Assembly: GCA_024274785.1 (NCBI GenBank)
Contig: JAJSAM010000035.1
Location: 85,613 to 149,612, forward strand
Source: Planctomycetota bacterium
GTDB lineage: Bacteria > Planctomycetota > JAJSAM01
Reading direction: 5' to 3'
Length of the DNA: 64,000 nt
In this document: positions 3,173 through 61,676 of the stretch, one piece after another
Layout: every line of letters begins with the position of its first letter
How positions within the stretch are numbered: position 1 is the stretch's first letter
The notes under the pieces: model-generated
The model's input: the letters and a program-made list of their open reading frames with translations, nothing else
Told to the model about the DNA's origin: nothing
Database searches by the model: none
Program-made: the position numbers and the translations under genes

Positions 3173-3340
3173 TTACCCCGCGAGGTCGTTTCTATCTCTC
3201 AGGCGCCGCCGGTCGAGGGGCTTCACCGGGATCAGGATCCGCCTCCCGGTCCTGGCAAGCAGGCCGAGGGCGGTGAGCGCGGCGGCGCCGGACAGCGTCA
3301 GGGCGGAGAGCAGGAAGCCGCGCCGGGTCGGGCCGTTCAT
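3173..3340 (-). CDS. Small ORF (55 aa) with twin-arginine-like N-terminus
   Basis: MNGPTRRGFLLSALTLSGAAALTALGLLA... Its ATG overlaps the TGA stop of the rSAM gene (ATGA at 3337-3340). Stop TAA at 3173-3175, 5 nt upstream of the Memo/AMMECR1 start. Short ORFs are common by chance in GC-rich DNA. Confidence 0.2.
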   Translation of the reverse strand: MNGPTRRGFLLSALTLSGAAALTALGLLARTGRRILIPVKPLDRRRLRDRNDLAG

Positions 3341-4311
3341 TCAAAGACTCCTTCCGTCGGACGGTCGCAGGAGAGGCAGCGTCCTTCGCGTATCCGGATT
3401 TCGCCGAGCCGGTAACCGACGCGCGGGATCAGCTCCGCACCGCACCCGGGACAGCGGGTGGTCTCTCCGCCGGAACCCGGGACGTTACCGACATAGACGT
3501 AGTGCAGGCCGACCTCGCGGGCGATCTCCCTGGCGCGGAGGAGCCGCTTCGGGGAGGTCGGCGGGAGGTTTTTCAGTCGGTAACGCGGGAAGAAACGGGA
3601 GAAGTGGAGGGGTGTCTCGGGACCCAGGTGGTCATGCACGAAGCGCGCGAGGCATCGGATGCTCCTCTCGTCGTCGTTCAGCGTCGGAATGACGAGGTTG
3701 GTGACCTCCACCCAGACGCCCTCCTCCTTCGCGATCACGAGGGCGTCCTGCACCGGCTTCAAGGTCGCTCCGCACACTTCCCGGTAGAGGCGGTCGGAGA
3801 AGAACTTCAGGTCGATGTTGGCGGCGTCGGTCACCCTGCAGAGGCGGCGCCAGGGATCCTCGTTCACGTAGCCGGCGGTGACGAGGACGTTGCGGAGTCC
3901 CGCTGCGCGCGCCTGCAGGGAGGTCTCGAGCGCGAATTCGTAGAAGACCACCGGGTCGGTGTAGGTGAAGGCCACCGAGCGGCAACCCTCCTCTCCGGCG
4001 AGCGCGATCACCTGCTCCGGGGGGCAGAGGTAGGCCGGCTCCTCTTCCGGGTTGGCCTGCGAGATCTCCCAGTTCTGGCAGTTGGTGCAGTGCAGGTTGC
4101 AGCCGACGGTGGCGATGGAGAAGATCGCCGACCCCGGCAGGAAGTGGAAGAGGGGTTTCTTCTCGATGGGATCGACGTGGAGCGAGCAGGGCCGCCCGTA
4201 GGTGACCGCGCGAAGCCTGCCGTCCAGGTTGATCCGGATCCGGCACTCCCCACTCTGCCCCGGAGCAATCCGGCATTGCTTCGGACACAACTGGCAGGTC
4301 ACGAAGCTCAT
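3337..4311 (-). CDS. AmmeMemoRadiSam system radical SAM enzyme (PFL-activating-enzyme-like)
   Basis: 324 aa. CNLHCTNCQNW radical-SAM CxxxCxxC motif. C-terminal CPGCGAEL...CLSC cysteine cluster. Operon with the Memo/AMMECR1 gene. Confidence 0.85.
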   Translation of the reverse strand: MSFVTCQLCPKQCRIAPGQSGECRIRINLDGRLRAVTYGRPCSLHVDPIEKKPLFHFLPGSAIFSIATVGCNLHCTNCQNWEISQANPEEEPAYLCPPEQVIALAGEEGCRSVAFTYTDPVVFYEFALETSLQARAAGLRNVLVTAGYVNEDPWRRLCRVTDAANIDLKFFSDRLYREVCGATLKPVQDALVIAKEEGVWVEVTNLVIPTLNDDERSIRCLARFVHDHLGPETPLHFSRFFPRYRLKNLPPTSPKRLLRAREIAREVGLHYVYVGNVPGSGGETTRCPGCGAELIPRVGYRLGEIRIREGRCLSCDRPTEGVFE

Positions 4312-4354: not shown

Positions 4355-4364
4355 GGGGGGGGGG
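4355..4364. repeat. G10 homopolymeric tract 44 bp upstream of AmmeMemoRadiSam operon start
   Basis: acaaGGGGGGGGGGcggg read directly in the sequence. Confidence 0.9.
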
Positions 4365-4647
4365 CGGGATGTCCCCATCGACCACTGGGGTGAGTTGGGA
4401 CTGCTTGATCGGAGGGCGGTGCGCCTGCGCCACCACGATGGTCCTGGTGCGTTCGCGTTCTCCGTTGCGCGGACGAGGCGGCCGACCTCTCTGCCGGATT
4501 GCTCGCAGGATCCAGGGCGAGTCGCTGCCGGTCACCAACCTGTCCGGCTGGCTGAGGAGCTTGCGTACCTGACGGTCTTCTGCCTCACTGCTTCACCGAC
4601 CTGTCCGCTCTGCCATTTTTGTCACCATCGTCCGGTAACCTCTTCGC

Positions 4648-6345
4648 ATGGAAGGACGGACTCTCCACATCCACGAGGCGCGGATCGGGATCGGTCTGCC
4701 TACCCGCACCGTTCGGCCGCACGGGCGGAAGGGCGATGAGATTCTGGCGGCGCTGCACACGGCGCTCGGGGAACCGGCGGACCGGATCGTTCTCACCGGC
4801 CGGTTGTTCGAGCGGCCGGATCCGGCGGCCCACCTGGTGGACCGGGTCGTGGCGCCGCTCGCGGATCTCGTCGCTCGGGGTATTGCGGTCACCGCTCCGT
4901 CCCACACGTCTCGTGCCCTGCTGTTCCTCGCGGCCGGAATCGGCCTCGCCGACGTGGACCTCCCGGGTCCTCCGGTCGAGTTCTGGCGGGTGGGGCGGTT
5001 TCGGGTGCTCAGCGGGGGGGAATCGGAGGTGCGCCAGGTCCGCCTTCCCGGCATCGCCGAAGTGACGATCGACCTGACCGGTCTGGCCATCGGTGAGGCT
5101 CTCGAGGCCATCCGCACCCGGCTGCGCCCGATTCAGGCGGTGCGGATGGTTCGGCTCACGCTTCACGGCCGGACCGCCGAGCGGGAACTGCTCACCTTCG
5201 GGCATCGGGAGATCCGCCACTACCTGCCGGGCGGCGTGGACGGCGCGGTGGTGAACGAACTGACCGGCCGCCGACCCGGAAACGGGCAGTTCGAGAGTGA
5301 CGACGCGCGGAAGGCCGCGCTCGCCGAGCGCCGGAAGCGCCTGCCGGACCTCCCCGAGACCACCGGGGTCTACGAGTTTCAGGACGATCGCGGTCGGCCG
5401 CTCTATGTCGGCAAGGCCGTGAACATCCGCCGGAGGGTAGCCTCGCACTTCACCGCCGAGGCCCGGGAGGAATCGCCGCGCGGCCCCATGCTTCTCGCTG
5501 CCCGGAACCTGGTCTTCTCCGAAATGCCGACCGAGGTGGAGGCCCTCCTCCGGGAGGCGGAGCGGATCCGGGAAGCCCGCCCCCCGTACAACCGGCAGAT
5601 GCGTGAGACCGAGAACTACCGGTATCTTCGCGCCGATGTCGACGCCGTTGTGCCGGGCATCACCTCGGTTCCGGAGACGAAGAAGGACGGCGCGGTCTAC
5701 ATCGGCCCGTTTCCAAAACGCTGGCCGGTGGAACGGTCCATCCGGACGCTGATGGTGATCTACGGCCTGAAGTCGTGCAAATGGAAGCCTTCGGAAGAGG
5801 CGCCCCCGATCTGCACCGATCGCGACCTCGACCTCTGCACCGCGCCATGTACCGGCCGGGTATCGCTCCCGGAGTATCGCGAGCGGGTGATGATGGCCCT
5901 CGACGACCTGCTCGGCACCGGACTCGGCGAGCCTGCGTTCGGTGCCCTGAACTCGCCGTCGGCCGGCCTGTTGGCCACCGGGGATCTGCGCATTCTGGAC
6001 AGGTTCCGGGGCAGTGTCCGCTACCTGCTCGACAACCTGCGCTCCGCCTGCGGGACCCTGCCGCTTTCCGATGGCCGAACGCTCCTCGTGCTGGGAGGCC
6101 TGCGTGCCGGCGTTCGGCGGGTGAGCGAAACCGAAGCTGACGAATGGCGCCGCCGGTCCCTCAGGGCCTTCTCCCGTCATCCGCCCCGCACCGCCGTCTC
6201 GGTATCGCGGGTGAACGAGGTGCGCATCCTCTCCCGGGCGCTGCGGGAGCAGGGGGCTTGCATCGTTCCCTCCACCGAGCGGCCCTGCCGCAATGGAGGG
6301 TCGACCTCCGGGCGACTGTGCTGGCAGTCCGGCAGCGTCATGTAG
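4648..6345 (+). CDS. GIY-YIG nuclease (Cho/UvrC N-terminal-half-like) with N-terminal degenerate calcineurin-like (SbcD/Mre11-like) region
   Basis: 565 aa. GIY-YIG motif TGVYEFQDDRGRPLYVGKAVNIRRRVASHF. UvrC-like Cys-rich segment (EAPPICTDRDLDLCTAPCTGRVSLPEYRERVMMALDDLL). N-terminus TLHIHEARIG / RIVLTGRLFERPD resembles the SbcD phosphoesterase motifs (LHTSDWHLG / VLIAGDLFD) with metal ligands substituted. The last 19 codons are supplied by repeat copy A. Confidence 0.6.
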   Translation: MEGRTLHIHEARIGIGLPTRTVRPHGRKGDEILAALHTALGEPADRIVLTGRLFERPDPAAHLVDRVVAPLADLVARGIAVTAPSHTSRALLFLAAGIGLADVDLPGPPVEFWRVGRFRVLSGGESEVRQVRLPGIAEVTIDLTGLAIGEALEAIRTRLRPIQAVRMVRLTLHGRTAERELLTFGHREIRHYLPGGVDGAVVNELTGRRPGNGQFESDDARKAALAERRKRLPDLPETTGVYEFQDDRGRPLYVGKAVNIRRRVASHFTAEAREESPRGPMLLAARNLVFSEMPTEVEALLREAERIREARPPYNRQMRETENYRYLRADVDAVVPGITSVPETKKDGAVYIGPFPKRWPVERSIRTLMVIYGLKSCKWKPSEEAPPICTDRDLDLCTAPCTGRVSLPEYRERVMMALDDLLGTGLGEPAFGALNSPSAGLLATGDLRILDRFRGSVRYLLDNLRSACGTLPLSDGRTLLVLGGLRAGVRRVSETEADEWRRRSLRAFSRHPPRTAVSVSRVNEVRILSRALREQGACIVPSTERPCRNGGSTSGRLCWQSGSVM

Positions 6346-31844: not shown

Positions 31845-32330
31845 ATGCTCTACCGCGTCAAGGAGAAGTTCTGGTCCTGGGGAAACGACTTTTCGATCAC
31901 GGACGCCGACGGCAAACCCTGCTTCCTGGTCGACGGCGCCGCGTTCTCCTGGGGCGACGACCTTTCGGTGCAGGATCCCGACGGGCGCGAGCTGGCCCGG
32001 ATCACTCAGAAGCTGTTCTCCTTCATGCCTCGCTACCGCATCTACATCGGTGGAGAGTTTTTCGCGGAGGTCATCAAGGAGTGGACCTGGTTCAAGAAGA
32101 ACTTCACTCTGGATGTTCCGGGCCCGAACGATTACGCGATCGAGGGCTCGTTCTGGGAGCACGAGTTCGAGTTCGTGCGCGGCCGCCACGTGGTCGCTCG
32201 AGTGAGCAAGGACTACTGGAACTGGACGGACAGCTACGGCGTTTCGATCGAGGAAGGCGAAGACGACATCTCGATCATCTGCGCCTGCATCGTCATCGAC
32301 CAGGTCCTGCACGACGACAAGAACGACTGA
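31845..32330 (+). CDS. LURP-one-related (LOR/DUF567) tubby-C-terminal-like protein
   Basis: 161 aa. MLYRVKEKFWSWGNDFSITDADGKPCFLVDG...YRIYIGGEFFAEVIKEWTWFKKNFTLD: typical LOR/scramblase-like beta-barrel pattern. Confidence 0.6.
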   Translation: MLYRVKEKFWSWGNDFSITDADGKPCFLVDGAAFSWGDDLSVQDPDGRELARITQKLFSFMPRYRIYIGGEFFAEVIKEWTWFKKNFTLDVPGPNDYAIEGSFWEHEFEFVRGRHVVARVSKDYWNWTDSYGVSIEEGEDDISIICACIVIDQVLHDDKND

Positions 32331-32350
32331 TCACGTTACTCCGCCCCTGT

Positions 32351-32379
32351 GCAATCTGAATTCCACATATTCAGATTGC
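32351..32379 (+). terminator. Perfect 11-bp AT-rich inverted repeat (hairpin) downstream of the LOR gene
   Basis: GCAATCTGAAT-tccacat-ATTCAGATTGC. No U-tract follows. Lies at the left edge of the lower-GC island. Confidence 0.3.
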
Positions 32380-32389
32380 GGAGAGCCAT

Positions 32390-32497
32390 CATCAAATCGC
32401 CGTGCACGCCGCCGTCACAGAAATACATCTGACGCTCCCGGACCGCCAGCACGGTCGCCCAGAGATCGACCCTCCATTGCGGCTGGGCCGCGCTGTG
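32390..32497 (-). repeat. Dispersed intergenic repeat, copy D (reverse orientation)
   Basis: Reverse complement of ...gccagcacggtcgcccagagatcgaccctccattgcggctgggccgcgctgtg matches copies A-C, including the tail (gtcacagaaatacatctgacgctcccggaccgcc vs rc of copy A). Confidence 0.8.
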
Positions 32498-32623
32498 GCG
32501 GTAGGAATCTGATCACGGCGAGCTTCACCCGGTCGGTCCCAACTCCGGGTCTTGGTCGCATCCATACGATCGCTTGACACGGTCCCATGCTGTGCTCCAA
32601 TGAGAGATGAGAGGAGCATTGGG

Positions 32624-33649
32624 ATGAGTGTCGGACCGAGGGTGCCTCCGGAAGTTTGCGGACTTCTCCGGGCGATCGAATGTTCTCTGGCCGGGAACGA
32701 GACGTACCTTGATGCCTGGTACCGAACGAAGCGTGTAAGCCTCGGGCGTACGCTCTATTCCTGGACGAGAAAAAGCCAATCTGCAGATGAGATCCTTCAG
32801 GCCATCCTGATCGCTGCGCTGCACGCGTCACGCGCGCGGACCACCGTGAAAAACGAGGCGGGGTGGATGTCTCGCGTCGCCGCGAATACCCTCGCAGACA
32901 TCAGGCGCGAGGATCGCCTTCGCAGATGCCAGTCCCATGAATTGTGCGACCTGCCCGATGAATCGAGTCTGGCCGACCCTTTCCGGGTCATCGCCGCAAA
33001 GGACGCCTTGTGCCGTATGATCATCATTGCCGCAACTTTCGGATCACCGGAGCGCGAAGCACTTCTGCTTCGTCTCAAATACCGTTGGGACCAGGGAGAG
33101 ATCGACCTATGGCTCACGAACTGGCTCGGGATAGGCAAAGACCGGGCTCGCAAGATCAGACGGAGTGGCCGGAAACTGCTGCGGAAGGTGGTTTCCGGCA
33201 AGTGCGCTGGGCGGGTTGGTCCTCGGCACAGAGTTTTGACGCCCCCCCCCCCCGTTTTCCTGACTAATACTACAGTCAAGCCGCGACCTCATGAAACGCC
33301 GAAGTCTCGGCAGATCGCAGAGGCCGCAAACCAAAGGAGGAAGGGATGGGAGTCTCCGTCAAGTCTGTATTGCTCGCCGCATTGCTCTACGTGTGCATCT
33401 TTGCGCTCGCCCAGCAGGTTGAGGCGACGGAATGCACCGGGGTTGGGCAAAACCGCAAGAGTTCCTTGGACCAATTCGGCAGTTGTCCCTCCAACGAAGA
33501 CTGGTGCTGCACCTTTGCACGCTTCGAGGGCCTCGGTGTCCCGGACAGTGCGAGTTGCGACCCGGTGGAGCGGTCAGCGACTCTGGATAATCCTGATCCC
33601 AACCAGAACAGCATTGACCCGATGCTTTCCAACGAGGTACCTACCGTGA
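32624..33649 (+). CDS. Divergent ECF-like sigma-70 family protein; true 3' end uncertain (C12 tract at 33242-33253)
   Basis: Strong RBS (GAGGAG) before ATG 32624. Region-2-like (ADEILQAILIAALHASRAR) and region-4-like (SPEREALLLRLKYRWDQGEIDLWLTNWLGIGKDRARKIRRSGRKLLRKV) segments. Several Cys (CGLLRAIEC, CQSHELC). After the polyC (PPPP) the frame runs a further about 130 codons overlapping the next gene and looks non-coding. A tract of C11 or C13 would terminate within 5 codons. Confidence 0.5.
   Translation: MSVGPRVPPEVCGLLRAIECSLAGNETYLDAWYRTKRVSLGRTLYSWTRKSQSADEILQAILIAALHASRARTTVKNEAGWMSRVAANTLADIRREDRLRRCQSHELCDLPDESSLADPFRVIAAKDALCRMIIIAATFGSPEREALLLRLKYRWDQGEIDLWLTNWLGIGKDRARKIRRSGRKLLRKVVSGKCAGRVGPRHRVLTPPPPVFLTNTTVKPRPHETPKSRQIAEAANQRRKGWESPSSLYCSPHCSTCASLRSPSRLRRRNAPGLGKTARVPWTNSAVVPPTKTGAAPLHASRASVSRTVRVATRWSGQRLWIILIPTRTALTRCFPTRYLP
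33242..33253. repeat. C12 homopolymeric tract inside the 3' end of the ECF-like sigma ORF
   Basis: gaCCCCCCCCCCCCgttttcc read directly in the sequence. Confidence 0.9.
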
Positions 33650-33798
33650 TTACACACTACGGTTCAGGGATCGGCCACCAGTGGGTCGTTAAGGTGTGCG
33701 GACCGGCGGGAATCCCAGTCCACATCACCGTTTCGTTCCGCAATTCGTTCGGACTATCGACAGCCTCTTGGGCGATCATTATTAAACCAGAGTGCTGA
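33346..33798 (+). CDS. Secreted cysteine-rich small protein (150 aa)
   Basis: Strong RBS (AAAGGAGGAAGGGATG). Signal peptide (MGVSVKSVLLAALLYVCIFALAQQVEA). Mature part has 8 Cys (TECTG...GSCPSNEDWCCTFARF...SCDP...VCGP...PEC). Lower-GC region. Confidence 0.65.
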   Translation: MGVSVKSVLLAALLYVCIFALAQQVEATECTGVGQNRKSSLDQFGSCPSNEDWCCTFARFEGLGVPDSASCDPVERSATLDNPDPNQNSIDPMLSNEVPTVITHYGSGIGHQWVVKVCGPAGIPVHITVSFRNSFGLSTASWAIIIKPEC

Positions 33799-33864
33799 GC
33801 ATTTTCATGGCGATTGAAGATGTGCCATTCCCCGGCCATTTGCATTCCCGGAAGGTCGCCTCAA

Positions 33865-36339
33865 ATGACGAATTCGAGATGGCTGCTATTGGTGATCTCA
33901 ATCGCCATAGTTTGCGCGGCAGTTGGCGCACTATCCGTCGATAATGAAGCCAAACCGCCGCACCAGGTGGTCGAAAGCTACGCCTCGTCTGAGGTCAAGG
34001 AACTCCCAACTGTCGAGAGGGCGCAGGCTGCAAATGGCGTGGGGATTGATGTCCAGCCACCACTGCAGCACGGCGAAGAAATCAAGGCAACCTGGCTGAT
34101 CGGGGGTGTAGATCGCCAGGTTGCCGCAGTGCCCTCTGTTGCTGGGCTGGATCACATCGATCTACCGTATCCTTCAGAAACGCCAGAGTCGCTGACTCTC
34201 GCGCGGGATGGATTCGCTTCCGCCCGGATCGATCACACGGTGAACGGTGGGCGGTACGCTGTTGAGTTCGTACGCTGCGGTTCGGCGTTGGTCTGCGTAG
34301 AATCCACCACTGGAGCATACGACCCGGAAACTGCCGCCGTTCGCCTCGAGTGCAATGGCCTTCGCCATTCCCCGGTTGAACAGCATGGTGGGGAGTTCAG
34401 GTTTGAAGATCTGTCTCCCGGTCGATATGGGGTCGATCTCGACCCGGACGGTTCTGGCTTCATCACTTTCGGGTATCTCCCCGTTAACGCAGGACAGCCA
34501 TCGAGATTCGGCATCGACCTCCGGGGGCAGTCTGACATTGCCGGGCGGATCCTCATGCACGGTAGACCGCTTGCGGATTCCAGCGCGCTTACCGTGAGGA
34601 TGACGGAAGCTCAACTGAAGGTGGCAAGGCCCCAGTATGTACTCCCCGTGAATCCGGATGGGTCGTTTCAGGGCCAGGTGCGGCGGGGCGACTACTCGGT
34701 CACGGTGGTGAGAGGCGAGCAACTGGTCGGGACTTTCGCCTGGATGGTGTCAACCAGGGAGGAGAGCCGGGACTTTGACCTGGCGGAGGTTCTCCGGGTC
34801 TCGGGGCGAATTCTGGATGCCGAGGGGCAAACACTTCCGAACGTGGACCTGGTCTTCGCGGAGCCCCGAGAGGGTGGAGGAGTTCACAGCTGTCGGAGCG
34901 ATGATTCGGGCGAGTTCAGAGCACTTCTTCCCGCTGGAGTGCGCCACAGTGTTCAGATTCGGGGGAAGTCTTTCGGAGTGATGACCCTGGGTTCCATCAC
35001 TCTCACCGAGGACACGACGATCGACTTTCAGATTCCATGCGGAAGCAAGGTGCATGGCCGGATTTCTTCCGCAAATGGTGAACCTCTGGCCGGTGTCATC
35101 ATCAGTCTGATGAACTGGCGGGTGCGTACGGGAGATTCTGGTGAGTTCGAGATTGCGGATGTGCCCGCCGGTCGATTCAAGATCTACGCCTACAGACAAC
35201 CTGGCAACATTCTCATCAATTTCAGTGATCTGATTGTAGTGGGTGGGGAAGACCTTTGGTTGGAACTCGTGGAGGATCTTCCCCCAGCGGGGTTTGTCGC
35301 CGGGAAGGTGGTTTCTGCCGACGGAAAGCCGATATCGGGTATCCGAGTTCAGGCCGCGGGTGTCGCCGGCGGGCTGACCGGATGCATCACGAAGCGCGAC
35401 GGGAAGTTCAAGTTCAAGGTTCACGGTGATGTGGTCAATGTGTGGGCAAATGGCCCGGAGGAGAAGGGGCTTTGCAGGGCGGTGGCCAAGGTACCGCTCG
35501 GGACTCAGGATATCGTTCTGGTTCTCCTGGCCCCGGTCGAGTTGAAATTCGTGTTCATGCTGGATCAGAAGCGATTCTTGGGCCCGATTGACGGTCTGTT
35601 GGCGCTCAAGGATGAGAGTGGTAAGTCAACTGCGTTGGGAGTGGGCTCATCTGCGAGGGCCATGGAACGTTTCCGGCGCATACCCGCAGGTCGCTATAGG
35701 ATGATGTTCCTGTTCAGTCAGTCATTTGCGAACACCGACTGGTTCGAGGTCGACCTCCGGGAGAGTCAACGCTCGGAGGTGCAGGTTGAACTGGTGGCCG
35801 GTTCGCAGCCTGCGCTTGATTTCGATTCGCCATTCTCCGGCAGGTTCGCCGTGCGGTCCGGAGATGGGCGGATTGTGTACGCCGTGGATCTGCTCAACGC
35901 CAGGTCATCATTCCGGATTGGCCGGATCCTCCCGGCCGGGAGCTACGAGGTGCTTGCGTTCTCCCGATACGGTGAGGTTGCAGTGGGTCAGCTCGAGGTT
36001 CTCGCCGACCACTCTGAACCGGTCTCCTGGGAGGTCTTTCGGGGCAGTATCCAGATCAAGGTGATGGATGCGGCCGGGAACCCCGTGGTCGGTCGGCGGA
36101 TCCGGGTCTGTGCGGCTGAGAACTGCCGGGACGTGCCCCTGGGCATCGCTGTGGAGAAGTTGCAGATGGGCTCCGTCCTTACGGAGCGACAAGCACTGAC
36201 CGACGATGGAGGACGATGTTGTTTCGCGGGGCTGCTTCCGGCGAGCTACGTCCTTACCGGCCATGGAGGAGATGCGGTAACCGTCATCGTTGGCGAGGGA
36301 GATGCCAGCCACCCTGCGGTACTCCTCACATGCGAATGA
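33865..36339 (+). CDS. N-terminally anchored 824-aa protein made of carboxypeptidase-regulatory-like (CarbopepD_reg/Ig-like) beta-sandwich repeats
   Basis: TM/signal anchor (WLLLVISIAIVCAAVGALSV). Repeated about 80-90-aa units with G-x-hydrophobic motifs, e.g. GRISSANGEPLAGVIISLMNWRVRTGDSGEFEIADVPAGRFKIYA and GKVVSADGKPISGIRVQAAG...DGKFKFKV. ATG 33865 has GGAAGG RBS. The track ORF start at 33814 is TTG. Confidence 0.65.
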   Translation: MTNSRWLLLVISIAIVCAAVGALSVDNEAKPPHQVVESYASSEVKELPTVERAQAANGVGIDVQPPLQHGEEIKATWLIGGVDRQVAAVPSVAGLDHIDLPYPSETPESLTLARDGFASARIDHTVNGGRYAVEFVRCGSALVCVESTTGAYDPETAAVRLECNGLRHSPVEQHGGEFRFEDLSPGRYGVDLDPDGSGFITFGYLPVNAGQPSRFGIDLRGQSDIAGRILMHGRPLADSSALTVRMTEAQLKVARPQYVLPVNPDGSFQGQVRRGDYSVTVVRGEQLVGTFAWMVSTREESRDFDLAEVLRVSGRILDAEGQTLPNVDLVFAEPREGGGVHSCRSDDSGEFRALLPAGVRHSVQIRGKSFGVMTLGSITLTEDTTIDFQIPCGSKVHGRISSANGEPLAGVIISLMNWRVRTGDSGEFEIADVPAGRFKIYAYRQPGNILINFSDLIVVGGEDLWLELVEDLPPAGFVAGKVVSADGKPISGIRVQAAGVAGGLTGCITKRDGKFKFKVHGDVVNVWANGPEEKGLCRAVAKVPLGTQDIVLVLLAPVELKFVFMLDQKRFLGPIDGLLALKDESGKSTALGVGSSARAMERFRRIPAGRYRMMFLFSQSFANTDWFEVDLRESQRSEVQVELVAGSQPALDFDSPFSGRFAVRSGDGRIVYAVDLLNARSSFRIGRILPAGSYEVLAFSRYGEVAVGQLEVLADHSEPVSWEVFRGSIQIKVMDAAGNPVVGRRIRVCAAENCRDVPLGIAVEKLQMGSVLTERQALTDDGGRCCFAGLLPASYVLTGHGGDAVTVIVGEGDASHPAVLLTCE

Positions 36340-36788
36340 GCAGGAGCATCCACCTGGCGATTTCGTTGACCCAGAGAGTGGTTGGAGTCCTTCTGATCTA
36401 CTCGGGTGTCGCCAAGACGGTCCTGCCGGAAGCCAGGTGTGGATTCGGCGCGGTCGTCCGCTCGCTCAATCTTCCGGACTCCATGCGGGCCGTGCTGCAG
36501 AGCGGACTCGGGCCCCTCGAGGTTGCCGTCGGGATCTGCCTGCTGGTCGGTTTCCTGCGCAAGGTCCATCTGAGTGTGAGCGTCTGCCTCATGGCCGCCT
36601 TCGTGGGCGCTACTGCCATGCAGAGCGCTTCGGGCTTCCAGGACAGGGCGTGCGGGTGCGGGCTGGGCATTGCGGTGAGTGTCGGCGCAGCTCTGGTACG
36701 CAACTCGATCCTGCTTGCGCTACTCTGCGGCTGCCTGCTGCACGAGTTCTGGGCGGGGAGGTCTCCGGTGCAGCTTTCAGGATCTTGA
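36330..36788 (+). CDS. MauE/DoxX-family membrane protein
   Basis: About 150 aa, 4 predicted TM. LTQRVVGVLLIYSGVAKTVLPE matches the MauE/DoxX N-terminal helix pattern. Overlaps the stop of the upstream gene (ATGA at 36336). Confidence 0.55.
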   Translation: MRMSRSIHLAISLTQRVVGVLLIYSGVAKTVLPEARCGFGAVVRSLNLPDSMRAVLQSGLGPLEVAVGICLLVGFLRKVHLSVSVCLMAAFVGATAMQSASGFQDRACGCGLGIAVSVGAALVRNSILLALLCGCLLHEFWAGRSPVQLSGS

Positions 36789-42971: not shown

Positions 42972-44374
42972 TGAGCCCCTGGCCGTCCCTTCTTCTGCTG
43001 GTCTTTCTGATCGGCTGCAGGAGCGTGGCCGAGCCGGAACTTCCGGCGCTGCCGGTCACACCCCCGGACGCATTTGCCGGCGGCGCCGCCGAGGATGCCT
43101 TCCCGCTGCGCGAGGACTGGTGGATGGACTTCGGCGACCCCCGCATCGACGAACTGGTCCGCGAGGCCATTCTCGGAAACCCGGGCCTCGATGAGGCGGA
43201 GGCGCGGCTCCGCTCCGCGTTCGCGCTCGCCGACATCGCCGGGGCTCCGCTCGCTCCGTGGCTCTCCGCCGGCCTCGTCACCTCCCGCGACAATCGCTAT
43301 ATCGGCGGGACCAGCTCTCTCTTTCCCGCCACCAACACCAGCAACGCCTTCGGCGCCTCCCTGAACCTCTCCTGGGAGGCCGACCTCTGGGCCCGGATCC
43401 GCTCCGGCCAGGCCGCGGCGATCGCGGATGTCGAGTTGCAGGACGCGCTCGTTCGCGGCGCCTATCTGTCCCTCGCGGTGCAGACCGCCAAGGTGGCCCT
43501 GACCGCTACCGAGGCGGGGCAGCAGGCGGAGGTGGCCCGGCAGAATCTCCAGAGCGCCAAACGGCTCGCGGCGCGAATAGAGGAGCGCTACGAGTTGGGC
43601 CTTCGCCAGATCCTCGAGGTCAAACTCGCCCGCACCGAGGTGGCCGACGCGAAGGCGCAGGTCTATTTCTGGGAGCGGGTGCGCGATGCGACGCGCCGAC
43701 AGCTCGAGAGTCTCCTCGGCCGCTACGCTACCGGCACGGTCGAGGTCTCCGCCGAGCTTCCGGAGTTGCCCGGGGCGGTCGAGGCGGGGATCCCGGCGGA
43801 CCTGATCGCTCGCCGTCCGGACCTGGTCGCCGCCGAAAAGGCCTACGTCTCCGCGTTCTACCGCGAAGAGGAGGCCGATGCTTCGCTCTACCCGCGGCTC
43901 TCTCTCACCGCCTCCGGAGGCGTGGCGAGTTCCGAACTCTCGGACCTGGCGATGGGGAACTTCGCCATCTGGTCGATCGGGGCGAACCTGTTGGCCCCCA
44001 TCACCGAGGGTGGCCGGCTCCGCGCCAATGTGGCGTTCTCCGCCGCCAACAAGGAGCAGGCCGGCGCGGCGTTCGCCTCCGCGGTGCTGCGCGCCTTCAC
44101 CGAGGTGGAGACGACGCTGGCCGCGGAGGGGTTCCTGAACCATCGCGAGGCCGCGCTGGCCGAACTCGTCGCCGAGGCCGGAGACAGCGCGGCCATCTCC
44201 GAGGATCGCTTTCTGGCCGGGCTTCTCGACATCCTGACGGTGCTCGAAGCCCGCCGCCGGCACTTCGGCGCCAGGGCGCAACTCCTCCGAGTGCAGTTGG
44301 AACGACTGACCAACCGTATCGACTTCTACGCCGCTCTGGGGGGGGGCATACCAGTTCGGCCGGATGCCGACTGA
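42971..44374 (+). CDS. RND efflux outer-membrane factor lipoprotein (TolC/NodT family)
   Basis: Lipobox (LLVFLIGC). Two OEP repeats. RBS AGGAGGAG. Overlaps TetR stop. Confidence 0.85.
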   Translation: MSPWPSLLLLVFLIGCRSVAEPELPALPVTPPDAFAGGAAEDAFPLREDWWMDFGDPRIDELVREAILGNPGLDEAEARLRSAFALADIAGAPLAPWLSAGLVTSRDNRYIGGTSSLFPATNTSNAFGASLNLSWEADLWARIRSGQAAAIADVELQDALVRGAYLSLAVQTAKVALTATEAGQQAEVARQNLQSAKRLAARIEERYELGLRQILEVKLARTEVADAKAQVYFWERVRDATRRQLESLLGRYATGTVEVSAELPELPGAVEAGIPADLIARRPDLVAAEKAYVSAFYREEEADASLYPRLSLTASGGVASSELSDLAMGNFAIWSIGANLLAPITEGGRLRANVAFSAANKEQAGAAFASAVLRAFTEVETTLAAEGFLNHREAALAELVAEAGDSAAISEDRFLAGLLDILTVLEARRRHFGARAQLLRVQLERLTNRIDFYAALGGGIPVRPDAD

Positions 44375-59565: not shown

Positions 59566-61676
59566 GGCCGCCTCACTTCCACCCGGTTCGGTCCGGCCGG
59601 GGGCAGCTCGAGGCGAAACTCGCCGTTCTCATCGGCGGCGACTTCCTGCTGCACTGAATCGAGGCGGAGGATCAAGGGCCCGTCCGGTGGGAAGCCGGCA
59701 AAGACGATCAGTCGAGGGGCGAGGGAGGTGGAGGTCACCGCCACACCGGTCGCATCGCGCGAGGCTTTCGTGAGAACGTGGTTCGCCTCGAGGACATGCG
59801 GCGCCGGCGTGGCCTTTTTCACGAGCGTCACCTCCGCATCCGGCTTTGCCAGGTGAAGGTGAAGCGATCCCTGAAGGACGCGCGCGCCGAGGATCCCCGG
59901 GCTGCGGCTCCAGTCGATTTCTCCGGCGGGATCGTCGAGTCGAACGGTGCGGCAGTCGCCGAAATCGCGGAAGGCCCAACCGTTCGGGGTCCGGAGGATT
60001 CGGGCGGTGCCGAGGGCGGAACGAACCGATCGAATGTAGGTGGAAGCGAAGACCGGGGCGGTCGGCTCCGACTTGCCCCAGCGATCGAGCAGCCGCCGGA
60101 AGACCCGGATCCGCCCGCGTCGCTCCACGCTGAAGAGGTGGACGTAGACGTTTGCGGGTTTGAGGATCTTCCCGCGTCCGGTCCGCTCGATGGTGGTGTC
60201 CACGTGGCGGAACGAGAGAGGGTTCGTTGTGAAATAGCCATCGTAGACGACTTCGTTCGACGACCCGCAGTAGACCTGCACGTGTCCGTTGACGATCCGG
60301 CCCAGGGGCGGAACGTAGCTGACGGAGTCGTTCAGGGCATCCCACCGATAGATCCCACCGTTCAGATTCAGGAGTCCGAGCCGGTCGGCCTCGGCAATGG
60401 CGTCCACCTGGGGGCACGCATTGCCGCTCCAGAGCATGACCTCACACCGCTTGGTGGGAGGAAGCAGGTAGTCATTGATGAACCGGATGCTGTCCCGCAC
60501 TTCCCCGACCAGGGTCTTGTCGAAGTGCTTCGGACCAGGGAAGACGAAAGTCGCCGAACTCCGCTCCGGCGATTCGCCCACCATTCCCCAGTTCAGCGGG
60601 TGGCGGACCGAGTGGGAAGCGGCTTCGACCCGGGGATGACGGAGCAGGCGGGATGCCGCTTCGATCATCGGGGTGCGGACCGTCGGCTTCAGGTCGTCCG
60701 TGATGGAGTTGGCGATGATGCTGACGGTGAACGGGAGTTCGTACTTCTCTATGATCTCATCGAGGAACACCTCCCCGCAATTGGCGCCGCGCCGGATTGT
60801 GGACAGGCTTTCGAATCCGTCTCCGTCCACGTGGCAGAAGAACATCCGGCGCCCGTTGATGACGCAAGGTTGGGGCGCCGGTACTCCGGTGAGACCGAGT
60901 GCGGTTCGCAGGAAAGCGAACAGGTCGAGGTACAACCGTCGACCGCCTTCCCCGGCTCCCTCGCGATAGACGTAGGGAGCCAGGGCGATCCCCCCCCAGG
61001 GACCGGTCACGATGGGCGTACGTGCACGCCCCGGATCGGCCGAGCTCCGGGTGGAGATCCAGGCGGTGTTTGCGCCAGACTCGATCCAGGGCCCACGGTG
61101 GATGGAATGCCCGGTGGGATCGGCCTCGATGGCGCAGGGAAGTCGGTCTGAGAGAGTCACCTTCACGCCGAGTGGTATGTCGACGTAGGCAGGATCGAAA
61201 CCCAGACCGAAGGAGGCGAGCCAGCGGGCCAGTCGGCCCGTGTTCTCGCGACGGTTGACAAAACGGAGGGGACCCCATTCGCCGAAGTGCACGAAGCGGA
61301 TGCCGCCTTCACGGCGGCGGGCTTCGAGCCAGGGCCACAGCCACTCGACCGGATCATCAGTGTACTCGAATGCAGTGAGTACCGCTCTGAGGTCGGTGAG
61401 CAGGCGTGCGGGAGGAGGTCCATCGCGCACATCGTGGCGTAGGACGACCATACCCAGGTAGTTCAGCGGAAGCTCGTAGAGCTGGTGGACGGGATCCTCG
61501 ATGCCGAGGGATTGGCTGCCTGCGCCGCCGTCATAGAGGGCGAGCACGTGTCGTGCGACGGGCTCCTGACCTTCGCTCCCGGAGCCGGCCGGTGATCGGC
61601 CGACCAGCATTCCGAGAAGAGCGATTGTCAGCAGGAGCACCAGCCGCTTTGCAGCCGGGGTCCTTCCATCCACCAT
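59562..61676 (-). CDS. PelA-like secreted polysaccharide-modifying protein (putative deacetylase-type domain; lacks recognisable GH114 hydrolase domain)
   Basis: 704 aa, signal peptide. Central ...VINGRRMFFCHVDGDGFESL... segment resembling polysaccharide deacetylase/PelA-type folds. First gene of the pel operon (ATGA overlap with pelB). Domain assignment by eye only. Confidence 0.45.
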   Translation of the reverse strand: MVDGRTPAAKRLVLLLTIALLGMLVGRSPAGSGSEGQEPVARHVLALYDGGAGSQSLGIEDPVHQLYELPLNYLGMVVLRHDVRDGPPPARLLTDLRAVLTAFEYTDDPVEWLWPWLEARRREGGIRFVHFGEWGPLRFVNRRENTGRLARWLASFGLGFDPAYVDIPLGVKVTLSDRLPCAIEADPTGHSIHRGPWIESGANTAWISTRSSADPGRARTPIVTGPWGGIALAPYVYREGAGEGGRRLYLDLFAFLRTALGLTGVPAPQPCVINGRRMFFCHVDGDGFESLSTIRRGANCGEVFLDEIIEKYELPFTVSIIANSITDDLKPTVRTPMIEAASRLLRHPRVEAASHSVRHPLNWGMVGESPERSSATFVFPGPKHFDKTLVGEVRDSIRFINDYLLPPTKRCEVMLWSGNACPQVDAIAEADRLGLLNLNGGIYRWDALNDSVSYVPPLGRIVNGHVQVYCGSSNEVVYDGYFTTNPLSFRHVDTTIERTGRGKILKPANVYVHLFSVERRGRIRVFRRLLDRWGKSEPTAPVFASTYIRSVRSALGTARILRTPNGWAFRDFGDCRTVRLDDPAGEIDWSRSPGILGARVLQGSLHLHLAKPDAEVTLVKKATPAPHVLEANHVLTKASRDATGVAVTSTSLAPRLIVFAGFPPDGPLILRLDSVQQEVAADENGEFRLELPPAGPNRVEVRRP

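What the first reader, a model, noticed from the sequence alone, without database searches (positions are those of the whole stretch)
33230..33270. C12 homopolymer sets the C-terminus of the island sigma factor: candidate phase-variable switch
With 12 C the sigma ORF reads through PPPP into about 130 further codons that overlap the downstream gene and look non-coding. With 11 or 13 C it terminates within 2-5 codons (…PPPRFPD* or …PPPPFS*). Slipped-strand mispairing at a C12 tract is frequent. The tract would toggle a compact sigma factor against an extended, probably non-functional one, or alter read-through into the Cys-rich protein gene. Equally it may be a homopolymer sequencing error.
Basis: seen in the sequence. 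Interest (0 to 1): 0.55.

Follow-up and report, generated by a model that had tools for sequence, protein, structure and literature searches.

The report
Slippery C-run ending a sigma-factor gene
A run of 12 C's at the very end of a planctomycete-type ECF sigma-factor gene encodes a conserved four-proline motif; its length differs between relatives and decides whether the protein stops normally or runs on into the next gene, but real switching is unproven.

Summary
C12 lies at 33242-33253 and is the longest homopolymer in the window. As assembled, the ORF 32624-33649 (341 aa) runs 132 codons past the tract and overlaps the next gene. With 11 C's it ends PPPPFS*; with 13 it ends PPPPRFPD*.

- **Origin of the tract.** The gene is a divergent ECF-type sigma factor of a rare family whose named members are Planctomycetota. 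The C-run encodes a family-conserved Thr-Pro-Pro-Pro-Pro motif. Distant members use mixed Pro codons and mostly stop 4-16 codons later.
- **The run-on tail is not coding.** dN/dS in that frame is about 1. One relative carries a 1-nt indel in it. GC3 follows the overlapping Cys-rich secreted-protein gene instead.
- **The tract varies.** Relatives have 9, 9 and at least 17 C's, and the last contig breaks inside the tract. An unrelated family member (L012, C9) is also in a run-on frame, one C short of a canonical ...TPPPPLEVLI* end.

This fits "C-terminal phase variation" by a 3' homopolymer, not an ON/OFF switch, because the whole conserved protein lies upstream of the tract. Reversible switching, a functional effect and a one-base assembly miscount could not be tested without reads.

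Verdict: interpretation partly supported; a new member of a known kind; moderate interest.

The parts
32624..33241 (+). Conserved body of the ECF-type sigma-factor gene (codons 1-206). It covers sigma2, the linker, sigma4 and a family-specific C-terminal tail up to Thr206.
   Evidence: Identical to the first 206 aa of P0001. The family profile hits PDB ECF sigmas SigL, SigH and SigE at 1e-12 to 1e-10. The AF2 model has pLDDT 89 with helices 14-108 and 119-190. Foldseek top hits are all ECF sigma factors. dN/dS against L001 is 0.49.
33242..33253 (+). C12 homopolymer, four CCC codons, encoding Pro207-Pro210 of the family-conserved Thr-Pro4 motif.
   Evidence: Pro207 is invariant in 21 family members. 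Remote homologues encode the motif with mixed codons. Close relatives have C9, C9 and at least C17.
33261..33263 (+). TGA stop reached when the tract has 3n+2 C's (11 or 14), giving ...TPPPPFS*.
   Evidence: Present in the window and L002, absent in L001 and L003.
33265..33267 (+). TAA stop reached when the tract has 3n+1 C's (10 or 13), giving ...TPPPPRFPD*. GACTAA is conserved in all four related sequences.
33254..33649 (+). Run-on part of the assembled 341-aa ORF: 132 codons that are not a real coding sequence.
   Evidence: dN/dS in this frame is 0.94 and 1.12, against 0.31 and 0.54 in the overlapping Cys-rich frame. L002 has a 1-nt deletion in it. GC3 drops to 0.57-0.58. Family members mostly stop 4-16 aa after the motif.
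33283..33327 (+). Conserved GC-rich hairpin (GCGACCUC...GAGGCCGC with an inner GCCGA/UCGGC stem) in the leader of the next gene.
   Evidence: Predicted in the MFE and centroid folds of the window and L001. 33283-33345 is 98% identical to L001, while the sigma body is 70-87%. No Rfam match.
33336..33348 (+). Shine-Dalgarno GGAGG and the ATG of the Cys-rich gene. Ribosomes cross it out of frame in the run-on state.
   Evidence: Invariant in all relatives. Predicted to pair with the 3' end of the C-run plus GUUUUCCU.
33346..33798 (+). Gene for a 150-aa secreted protein with 8 Cys and a signal peptide. It is overlapped by the run-on ORF.
   Evidence: Homologues P0003 (82%) and P0004 (70%) exist, but the window's own protein was not among the database hits. 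dN/dS is 0.31-0.54. The L012 sigma gene is likewise followed by a Cys-rich secreted protein, and L006 and L009 by other proteins with signal peptides.
33865..36339 (+). 824-aa protein with four CarboxypepD_reg repeats; same operon.
   Evidence: Pfam PF13620 at 1.7e-34. The same gene order occurs in L002 and L006.
36330..36788 (+). MauE-like membrane protein; last gene of the cluster.
   Evidence: Pfam PF07291 at 1.1e-16. Same position in L002.

Best explanation
The C12 run is the all-CCC encoding of a conserved Thr-Pro-Pro-Pro-Pro motif. That motif closes the family-specific C-terminal tail of a rare ECF-type sigma-factor family whose named members are Planctomycetota. In most family members the gene stops 4-16 codons after the motif.

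In this lineage codon homogenisation has turned the motif into a pure homopolymer that slips during replication, so its length differs between relatives (9, 12, at least 17).
- A change of 3 bases adds or removes a proline.
- A change of 1 base moves the ribosome between three endings: two short ones (FS* at TGA 33261, RFPD* at TAA 33265) and a 132-codon run-on.
- The run-on is non-coding sequence and crosses the ribosome-binding site and the first 101 codons of the next gene, which encodes a secreted Cys-rich protein.

The assembled state is the run-on state. Sigma2, sigma4 and the conserved tail lie upstream of the tract and are intact in every state. The expected effects are therefore a junk basic C-terminal extension on the sigma factor, plus out-of-frame ribosome traffic over the downstream start site. 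Loss of the protein is not expected. This is C-terminal-type simple-sequence-repeat variation.

Shown: the tract, the three frames, the conserved protein motif, the non-coding nature of the run-on, and length differences among relatives.
Inferred: that the differences arise by slippage at high rate, that the states interconvert within a population, and that they matter for sigma activity or for the downstream gene.
For: - **Tract and frames:**
- **ECF sigma identity:**
- **Conserved motif:** remote homologues (62 at E<1e-3) share ...WPRRY...W.TTPPPP followed by a short tail, and Pro207 is invariant.
- **Codons at the motif:** CCG CCA CCG CCG in L004; CCG CCG CCC CCT CCG in L005; CCT CCA CCC in L011; C7-T-C6 in L007; C10 in the canonical frame in L006/L008 and L009.
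- **Length differences:** close relatives have C9 (L001, L003) and at least C17 with the contig starting inside the run (L002).
- **Recurrence:** L012, an independent distant member, has C9 in a run-on frame that breaks the motif (TPPHP...) and overlaps a downstream Cys-rich secreted ORF. C10 would give LTPPPPLEVLI*.
- **Run-on is not coding:** dN/dS 0.94 and 1.12 against 0.31 and 0.54 for the overlapping gene. Synonymous/non-synonymous counts are 4/14 against 9/8. L002 has a 1-nt indel. GC3 switches frame. The 29 nt after the tract are the least conserved stretch, at 76%.
- **Assembly quality:** every other 7-9-nt homopolymer that falls within a gene lies in an uninterrupted ORF, so there is no sign of general homopolymer miscalling.
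- **Known kind:** tracts at 3' ends that only alter the C-terminus are a described class, C-terminal phase variation (PMC2823697).
Against: - No reads were available, so within-population length heterogeneity and reversibility are unshown.
- The relatives compared are different lineages (sigma 73% aa identity, dS 0.33), not strains. Length differences could have accumulated slowly.
- The C10 run in the P0020 cluster gives the same C-terminus in all three member proteins, seen on at least five contigs. Runs of this size are therefore not wildly unstable.
- The window, L001 and L012 are each exactly one C short of a canonical ending. That is also the pattern expected from under-called homopolymers.
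- The residues after Pro4 are unconserved in the family, so the two short endings are probably equivalent. The effect of the run-on tail is unknown.
- L001 and L003 differ by 1 base in 419 and may come from the same population or even the same sample. They may not be independent counts.
Confidence: 0.48

Rival explanations
1. Homopolymer miscount. The real genome has 13 C's (or 11), the sigma factor is an ordinary 213-215-aa protein ending ...TPPPPRFPD* or ...TPPPPFS*, and the 341-aa ORF is an assembly and annotation artefact.
For: - One extra C puts the window, L001 and L003 into the frame that ends at the GAC TAA stop conserved in all four relatives.
- One extra C restores the canonical TPPPP plus short tail in L012.
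- Most family members have short endings.
- The L002 assembly breaks in the tract, so this site is hard to assemble.
- L001, L003 and L012 come from metagenome assemblies. The L001 and L003 contigs are only 1100 and 634 bp, probably from low coverage.
Against: - Every other 7-9-nt run that falls within a gene in the window lies in an uninterrupted ORF.
- C10 runs at the homologous site are assembled in frame in L006/L008, L009 and the P0066/P0067 contigs.
- Two different assembly pipelines both give C9 for the L001/L003 organism.
- The sequencing platform of the window is unknown.
Confidence: 0.3
2. Fixed, tolerated frameshift. A one-off slippage event put the gene in the run-on frame. It persists because everything after Pro4 is dispensable. 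There is no frequent or reversible switching and no regulatory meaning.
For: - The tail after the motif is unconserved in length and sequence across the family.
- Some members have long junk tails without any C-run. L011 is an example (CCT CCA CCC): it keeps the FREHRG ending, which is followed by a stop in its homologue P0009, but runs on for about 60 more codons.
- Planctomycete ECF sigmas are known to acquire unrelated C-terminal extensions by fortuitous read-through (PMC7671368).
- The window and L001 share the same phase despite dS of 0.33.
Against: - Lengths of 9, 12 and at least 17 at one site show repeated length change.
- A pure run of 12 or more C's is intrinsically unstable in every organism tested (general knowledge of simple-sequence-repeat slippage).
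- The contig break in L002 occurs at the tract.
Confidence: 0.12
3. Programmed recoding. The genomic 3n state is the normal one. The canonical short sigma factor is made by slippage on the C-run, either -1 or +1 ribosomal frameshifting at the CCC codons or RNA-polymerase stuttering. This would tie the sigma isoform ratio, and ribosome traffic into the next gene, to tRNA-Pro and EF-P status.
For: - The two close lineages keep a multiple of three (C9 and C12) despite dS of 0.33.
- L012 is also in the run-on phase.
- C CCC CCC fits the X XXY YYZ pattern.
- A small hairpin (UGACU...AGUCA, 33261-33278) starts 7 nt after the tract.
- tRNA-Pro is documented to slip +1 on CCC-C (PMC7577736, PMC4519876).
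- Both shifted frames stop within 2-4 codons in the window and within 4-6 in L001.
Against: - Three run-on states among five run-bearing loci is not unusual by chance (own binomial estimate, p about 0.2), and two of these loci were examined because of their long ORFs.
- L006 and L009 carry C10 in the canonical frame.
- The hairpin is weak, and the fold of the tract region is no better than shuffles.
- G:C-rich slippery sites and rC:dG hybrids are poor for -1 frameshifting and for transcriptional slippage (general knowledge).
Confidence: 0.06
4. The run acts at the DNA or RNA level on the downstream gene, either as a variable promoter spacer or as an anti-Shine-Dalgarno strand whose length tunes translation of the Cys-rich protein.
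For: - TTGACG lies directly 5' of the run and CTAATA lies 3' of it.
- Folding predicts that the last C's plus GUUUUCCU pair with AGGAGGAAGGG. The SD is unpaired with probability 0.01 with the run and 0.58 without it. The same pairing appears in L001 and L002.
Against: - The promoter scan finds nothing.
- The implied spacers are 19, 22 and at least 27 nt, none near 17.
- Predicted SD occlusion is the same for 6-15 C's, so length would not tune it.
- There is no covariation.
- Fold z-scores are not significant for the window.
- Any C-run will be predicted to pair with a purine-rich SD.
Confidence: 0.04

Closest known systems
[quoted passage not shown] 2010, PMC2823697)
   Same: A long G/C homopolymer sits in the last part of a CDS. 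Length changes do not abolish the protein but swap its C-terminal sequence and length between three frames. Two of the frames differ by only a few residues.
   Different: In that work, read data showed tract-length variation within the sequenced population; here no reads are available. The host there is a low-GC pathogen with dozens of such tracts; here it is a high-GC environmental, probably planctomycete, genome with one such tract in 64 kb. The tract here encodes a family-conserved proline motif, and one frame runs 132 codons into the next gene.
Classical translational phase variation / contingency loci, including high-GC examples such as the M. tuberculosis glpK 7C tract (10.1101/717272; PMC10334774)
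   Same: Slipped-strand mispairing in a homopolymer gives reversible frameshifts. It occurs in GC-rich genomes too.
   Different: Those tracts lie early or inside the gene, so a shift truncates the protein (ON/OFF). Here the entire conserved protein precedes the tract.
Fortuitous C-terminal extensions of Planctomycetes ECF sigma factors (Pinto et al., PMC7671368)
   Same: A minimal sigma2-sigma4 ECF factor in Planctomycetes is extended at its C-terminus by translation of whatever sequence follows. The extensions are unrelated to each other and poorly conserved.
   Different: There the extensions arise from duplication and insertion and are stable parts of the gene. Here the extension depends on the phase of a homopolymer, overlaps a real gene in another frame and evolves neutrally (dN/dS about 1).
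tRNA-Pro slippage on CCC-C and polyproline stalling relieved by EF-P (PMC7577736, PMC4519876)
   Same: Four consecutive CCC codons form both a strong polyproline stall and the best-known +1-slippery codon context.
   Different: No evidence here that slippage is used. It is relevant only to the recoding rival.
Poly-C or poly-G tracts in promoter spacers (Bordetella fim, Neisseria porA and opc; own knowledge)
   Same: A variable C-run lies just upstream of a gene for a secreted or surface protein.
   Different: No -35/-10 pair at workable spacing flanks the run. The run lies inside an ORF.

Membership tests
ECF (group 4) sigma-70 family | Sigma2 and sigma4 domains only, recognisable by sequence profile | tested here: met
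   The single sequence is sub-threshold: Pfam Sigma70_r2 at 18 bits against a cut-off of 24, and 22 NCBIfam ECF models all far below cut-off. The 21-member family profile hits solved ECF sigmas (SigL 7.6e-13, SigH, SigE, AlgU, CnrH, SigW) over profile positions 28-194. Seven of 21 members hit Sigma70_r4_2 and six hit Sigma70_r2.
ECF (group 4) sigma-70 family | Two-domain helical fold like solved ECF sigma factors | tested here: met
   AF2 model with mean pLDDT 89.4, helices 14-108 and 119-190, and a coil tail at 191-214 with pLDDT 60-70. The Foldseek PDB top 8 are all ECF sigmas with probability 0.99-1.0. Global TM is low (0.3) because the domain orientation differs.
ECF (group 4) sigma-70 family | Cognate anti-sigma factor or other known regulatory partner next to the gene | tested here: not met
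   The neighbours are a LURP-one-related protein upstream, then a secreted Cys-rich protein, a CarboxypepD_reg protein and MauE downstream. None matches an anti-sigma family. This feature is common but not obligatory for ECF sigmas.
SSR-mediated phase variation (contingency locus) | Repeat tract long enough to slip (about 8 or more for G/C runs) | tested here: met
   C12, the longest run in the window.
SSR-mediated phase variation (contingency locus) | Tract length polymorphic among close relatives | tested here: met
   Lengths are 12 (window), 9 (L001, L003) and at least 17 (L002). Caveat: these are distinct lineages (sigma 73% identical), not strains.
SSR-mediated phase variation (contingency locus) | Mixed tract lengths within one population and reversible switching at high frequency | not testable with these tools
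   No read data. The only hint is that the L002 contig terminates inside the run.
SSR-mediated phase variation (contingency locus) | Tract placed so that a shift turns expression on or off (5' part of the ORF, or promoter spacer) | tested here: not met
   The tract starts at codon 207, after sigma2, sigma4 and the conserved tail. No promoter hexamers flank it.
C-terminal phase variation (Snyder 2010) | Homopolymer in the last part of the CDS; the three frames give different C-termini without abolishing the protein | tested here: met
   The frames give +2 aa, +4 aa or +132 aa after Pro4.
C-terminal phase variation (Snyder 2010) | Read-level length variation at the tract | not testable with these tools
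   No reads.
Programmed frameshift / transcriptional slippage site | Out-of-frame arrangement conserved among relatives, with a slippery run and a downstream stimulator | tested here: inconclusive
   The window (C12), L001 (C9) and L012 (C9) are all in the run-on phase, but L006 and L009 (C10) are in the canonical phase. Only a weak 5-bp hairpin lies 7 nt downstream, and the fold is no better than shuffles.
Intrinsic terminator | GC-rich hairpin followed by a U-run | tested here: not met
   The terminator scan finds none. Folds of the G-rich and C-run region have z-scores of +1.2 and +1.7.

The most novel reading that the evidence does not exclude
The run-on phase is the maintained genomic state in this clade: C9 and C12 are both multiples of three in lineages separated by dS 0.33, and a distant family member is in the same phase. 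The canonical short sigma factor would then be produced only through slippage on the poly-C / poly-Pro run, by ribosomal or transcriptional slippage. The C-run would be a recoding site. It would set the ratio of short to extended sigma factor and gate ribosome traffic across the start of the downstream secreted-protein gene, according to tRNA-Pro, EF-P and translation status.
Probability: 0.06. Interest if true: 0.75.

Novelty: new member of a known kind. Interest (0 to 1): 0.4.

Why it matters
If the tract really switches, it would be an example of simple-sequence-repeat variation acting on a transcription factor in an uncultivated, probably planctomycete, bacterium. It would also show a contingency-type tract arising from a conserved polyproline motif simply by codon homogenisation.

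Three results stand regardless of switching:
- The database protein P0001 (341 aa), held from NCBI, is the run-on ORF, and the real secreted Cys-rich gene beneath it was not among the database hits. The same masking occurs in L012.
- A small, previously undescribed ECF sigma subfamily has a conserved C-terminal ...WPRRY...W.TTPPPP tail. Its gene is usually followed by genes for secreted proteins.
- C-runs at this motif are repeatedly found out of frame in assemblies. Annotation pipelines and users of metagenome-assembled genomes should check this site.

Tried and rejected
- **Real C-terminal domain in the run-on tail: rejected.** dN/dS is about 1, L002 has a 1-nt indel, GC3 switches frame, and the family norm is a short tail.
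- **Intrinsic terminator made of the G-rich stretch, the C-run and TTTT: rejected**.
- **Promoter-spacer tract: rejected.** No hexamer pair was found, and the implied spacers are 19-27 nt.
- **Known RNA family in 32300-34000: none**.
- **Anti-SD pairing tuned by tract length: rejected.** The pairing is predicted but is insensitive to 6-15 C's.
- **Shared ECF-type promoter motif upstream of family members: none seen by eye**.
- **Searches that found nothing:**
  - Protein-pattern scans of genome contigs and metagenome contigs for close sigma relatives.
  - An exact 26-mer of the conserved SD region in metagenome contigs.
  - Exact look-up of P0001.
  - Cluster look-up, which gave no names.
- **First attempt at a family scan of genomes:** failed for lack of a conserved block. 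A narrower alignment gave three loci and the Planctomycetota assignment.
- **Other long runs in the window.** G9 at 44338 simply encodes the GGG of a C-terminal ...ALGGG... sequence (a motif I recall as typical of this family) in an outer-membrane efflux protein. G10 at 4355 is intergenic and was not pursued.
Full report
**1. The observation.** The + strand carries twelve consecutive C's at 33242-33253.
- It is the longest homopolymer in the window. The next longest are G10 at 4355-4364, G9 at 44338-44346 and C8 at 60990-60997.
- Dinucleotide-preserving shuffles yield a C12 in 6 of 100 trials, mean 0.08. The run alone is only mildly improbable.
- As assembled, the ORF starting at ATG 32624 runs to 33649 (341 aa). 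This is the database protein P0001, whose source is NCBI.
- I rebuilt the region with other tract lengths. C11 or C14 ends the protein at ...TPPPPFS* (TGA 33261-33263). C10 or C13 ends it at ...TPPP(P)RFPD* (TAA 33265-33267). C9, C12 or C15 gives the run-on.

**2. What the gene is.**
- On its own, the 206-aa part before the tract scores below threshold. Pfam Sigma70_r2 gives 18 bits against a cut-off of 24. NCBIfam gives 22 hits, all ECF sigma models and all far below their cut-offs.
- An exhaustive HMMER search of 1.84 billion representatives found 62 relatives at E<1e-3, most of them 200-270 aa long.
- A profile of 21 of them matches solved ECF sigma factors (SigL 7.6e-13, SigH, SigE, AlgU, CnrH, SigW) over positions 28-194.
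- AlphaFold gives a confident two-domain helical model with pLDDT 89. Its best PDB matches are all ECF sigma factors.
- Genome hits name the carriers as Planctomycetota.
- This is a divergent ECF-type sigma factor of a rare family whose named members are Planctomycetota.

**3. The key finding: the C-run encodes a conserved protein motif.**
- The remote homologues are 23-32% identical to the window protein. They share a family-specific C-terminal tail after sigma4...G..PR..WPRRY......W.(T)TPPPP. A short and variable ending follows in most: 4-16 residues in 11 of 14 motif-bearing members and 29 to about 100 in the other three. Examples are TPPPPFPEHRG*, TTPPPPFDAPT*, TSPPPPVRGHA* and TPPPPVPALAALLGAASPSGS*.
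- The first proline is invariant in 21 sequences.
- At the DNA level the motif is written with mixed codons in L004 (CCG CCA CCG CCG), L005 (CCG CCG CCC CCT CCG) and L011 (CCT CCA CCC). It is C7-T-C6 in L007. It is a C10 run in the canonical frame in L006/L008 and L009.
- The motif is therefore conserved as protein. The window lineage has homogenised it to CCC codons.
- CCC makes up 34% of Pro codons in a sample of six ORFs from the window.

**4. The run-on tail is not a gene.**
- In the stretch shared with the downstream gene, dN/dS in the run-on frame is 0.94 (against L001) and 1.12 (against L002). In the frame of the overlapping gene it is 0.31 and 0.54.
- Synonymous/non-synonymous counts are 4/14 in the run-on frame against 9/8 in the overlapping frame.
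- L002 has a 1-nt deletion between the tract and the next start codon, which would change the tail completely.
- GC3 falls to 0.57-0.58 in the run-on frame and rises to 0.71 in the other frame.
- The 29 nt after the tract are the least conserved part of the locus, at 76%.
- The real downstream gene (33346-33798) has a GGAGG ribosome-binding site and encodes a 150-aa protein with a signal peptide and 8 Cys.
- Homologues of that protein exist (P0003, P0004), but the window's own copy was not among the database hits. I infer that the 341-aa call masked it.
- The cluster continues with a CarboxypepD_reg repeat protein and a MauE-like protein. The same order occurs in L002. A sigma gene followed by a secreted-protein gene recurs in L006, L009 and L012.

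**5. Is the tract variable?** Only a handful of close relatives exist in the public collections searched, and two scans found nothing.
- L001 (sigma 73% identical, dS 0.33) has C9 followed by A, again in the run-on phase.
- L003 is nearly the same organism, with 1 mismatch in 419 nt, and also has C9.
- L002 begins inside the run with 17 C's. The tract there is at least 17, and the assembly graph ended there. That is what length heterogeneity or coverage loss would cause. This is my inference.
- A distant family member, L012 (P0037, 346 aa), carries C9 at the homologous site in a phase that breaks the motif (TPPHP). It then runs on for more than 100 junk codons over a downstream Cys-rich secreted ORF. 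C10 would give ...LTPPPPLEVLI*.
- The C-run at this motif is therefore repeatedly found out of frame.
- As a counterweight, the three member proteins of the P0020 cluster, seen on at least five contigs, all end identically. A run of about 10 C's is thus stable enough to give a consistent consensus.

**6. What cannot be decided.**
- In the window, L001, L003 and L012 the assembled run is exactly one C short of a canonical ending.
- In the window clade that ending uses GAC TAA, which is conserved in all four sequences. The TGA of the other frame is present only in the window and L002.
- Three readings fit this: a deletion-biased biological hotspot, systematic under-calling, or a maintained out-of-frame state rescued by slippage.
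- Against a general sequencing problem: every other 7-9-nt run that falls within a gene in the window lies in an uninterrupted ORF, and C10 runs are assembled in frame elsewhere.
- Against selection for the run-on phase: three of five run-bearing loci is not unusual by chance (own binomial estimate, p about 0.2), and ascertainment favoured long ORFs.
- Without reads I put about 0.3 on a miscount and about 0.06 on recoding. Most of the rest goes to real slippage variation, about 0.5 as recurrent length variation and about 0.1 as a fixed, tolerated frameshift.

**7. Mechanism.**
- Sigma2, sigma4 and the conserved tail up to Pro4 precede the tract. No phase removes them.
- The two short endings probably behave alike, because the residues after Pro4 are unconserved in the family.
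- The run-on phase adds 132 basic, S/R/P/T-rich residues. It also sends ribosomes out of frame across the conserved leader hairpin (33283-33327), the SD and ATG (33336-33348) and 101 codons of the Cys-rich gene.
- Plausible consequences, all inferred, are a less stable or less active sigma factor and interference with initiation of the next gene.
- Folding predicts that the last C's plus GUUUUCCU pair with the SD. The prediction does not change between 6 and 15 C's, so it does not make the tract a length-dependent RNA switch.
- Terminator, promoter-spacer and known-RNA explanations were tested and failed.

**8. Comparison with known systems.**
- The closest described kind is 'C-terminal phase variation'. 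In Helicobacter canadensis, homopolymeric tracts at 3' ends swap the C-terminus without silencing the gene (PMC2823697).
- Classical contingency loci and the M. tuberculosis homopolymer switches (10.1101/717272, PMC10334774) differ in that the shift truncates the protein.
- Planctomycete ECF sigmas are known to gain unrelated C-terminal extensions by fortuitous read-through (PMC7671368). The run-on here is the same kind of accident, but conditional on tract phase.
- CCC-C contexts are the classic +1 slippery site for tRNA-Pro (PMC7577736, PMC4519876). That keeps the recoding idea alive but unsupported.

**9. Verdict.** This is a new member of a known kind: a 3'-terminal homopolymer giving alternative C-termini. 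Two aspects are new, its origin from a conserved polyproline motif and its spill-over into the next gene. Interest is moderate (0.4). It would rise sharply if reads showed mixed lengths, or if the run-on phase proved to be the maintained state.

Noticed in passing
window 32624-33649 and 33346-33798: The database protein P0001 (341 aa, source NCBI) is the run-on ORF. The overlapped 150-aa Cys-rich secreted protein of this genome was not among the protein-database hits, although homologues from other samples are present (P0003, P0004). This looks like a mis-annotation caused by the tract phase.
   Followed up: yes
L012 1108-2359 (JGI 3300037515): A distant family member shows the same situation. 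C9 at 1811-1819 puts the sigma ORF in a run-on frame (346 aa) that breaks the TPPPP motif. The run-on overlaps an uncalled downstream Cys-rich secreted ORF (signal peptide MRKLLSMAAMFAAFGVTGAAMALG, 12 Cys). One more C gives ...LTPPPPLEVLI*.
   Followed up: yes
family alignments A3 and A5; window codons 191-210: This ECF sigma subfamily has a conserved C-terminal tail, ...G..PR..WPRRY......W.TTPPPP, and a conserved N-terminal GP.LP...GL..A segment. Neither is covered by solved ECF sigma structures. There is no adjacent anti-sigma factor. The genes are usually followed by genes for secreted proteins. The function of the tail is unknown.
   Followed up: partly
window 33283-33345: The leader of the Cys-rich gene is 98% identical to L001, while the sigma gene body is 70-87% identical. 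It contains a GC-rich hairpin (outer stem GCGACCUC/GAGGCCGC, inner stem GCCGA/UCGGC). There is no Rfam match and no clear covariation: the variable stem position is G-C in L001, G-U in L002 and A-C in the window.
   Followed up: partly
window 4355-4364: A second long run, G10 on the + strand (C10 on the coding strand of its neighbours). It is intergenic, 44 nt upstream of the ATG (4311) of a radical-SAM gene (3337-4311, minus strand) and downstream of the ORF 4585-6180. It could be a promoter-region repeat.
   Followed up: no
window 44338-44346: The G9 run encodes the Gly-Gly-Gly of the C-terminal ...AALGGGIPVRPDAD* of an outer-membrane efflux protein (Pfam OEP) and is in frame. This is an ordinary codon-level run and a useful control homopolymer.
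   Followed up: yes
window about 32000-36000: The cluster of sigma, Cys-rich, CarboxypepD_reg and MauE genes has lower GC (0.56-0.60) and lower GC3 (0.66-0.68) than its neighbours (GC 0.63-0.70; GC3 0.88 for the upstream LURP-one-related gene). No tRNA is present in the window. It may have been horizontally acquired.
   Followed up: partly
L002 44-110: A 1-nt deletion in the leader puts an upstream ATG in frame with the Cys-rich gene. Its product was therefore called as 164 aa (P0004) rather than about 150 aa.
   Followed up: partly
window 32624-32800 versus L001: The first 59 codons of the sigma gene have diverged much more than the rest. Nucleotide identity is 70%, dS is 0.87 and dN is 0.28, against dS 0.20 and dN 0.12 for codons 60-206. 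This may reflect a recombination boundary or different histories for the two parts.
   Followed up: no
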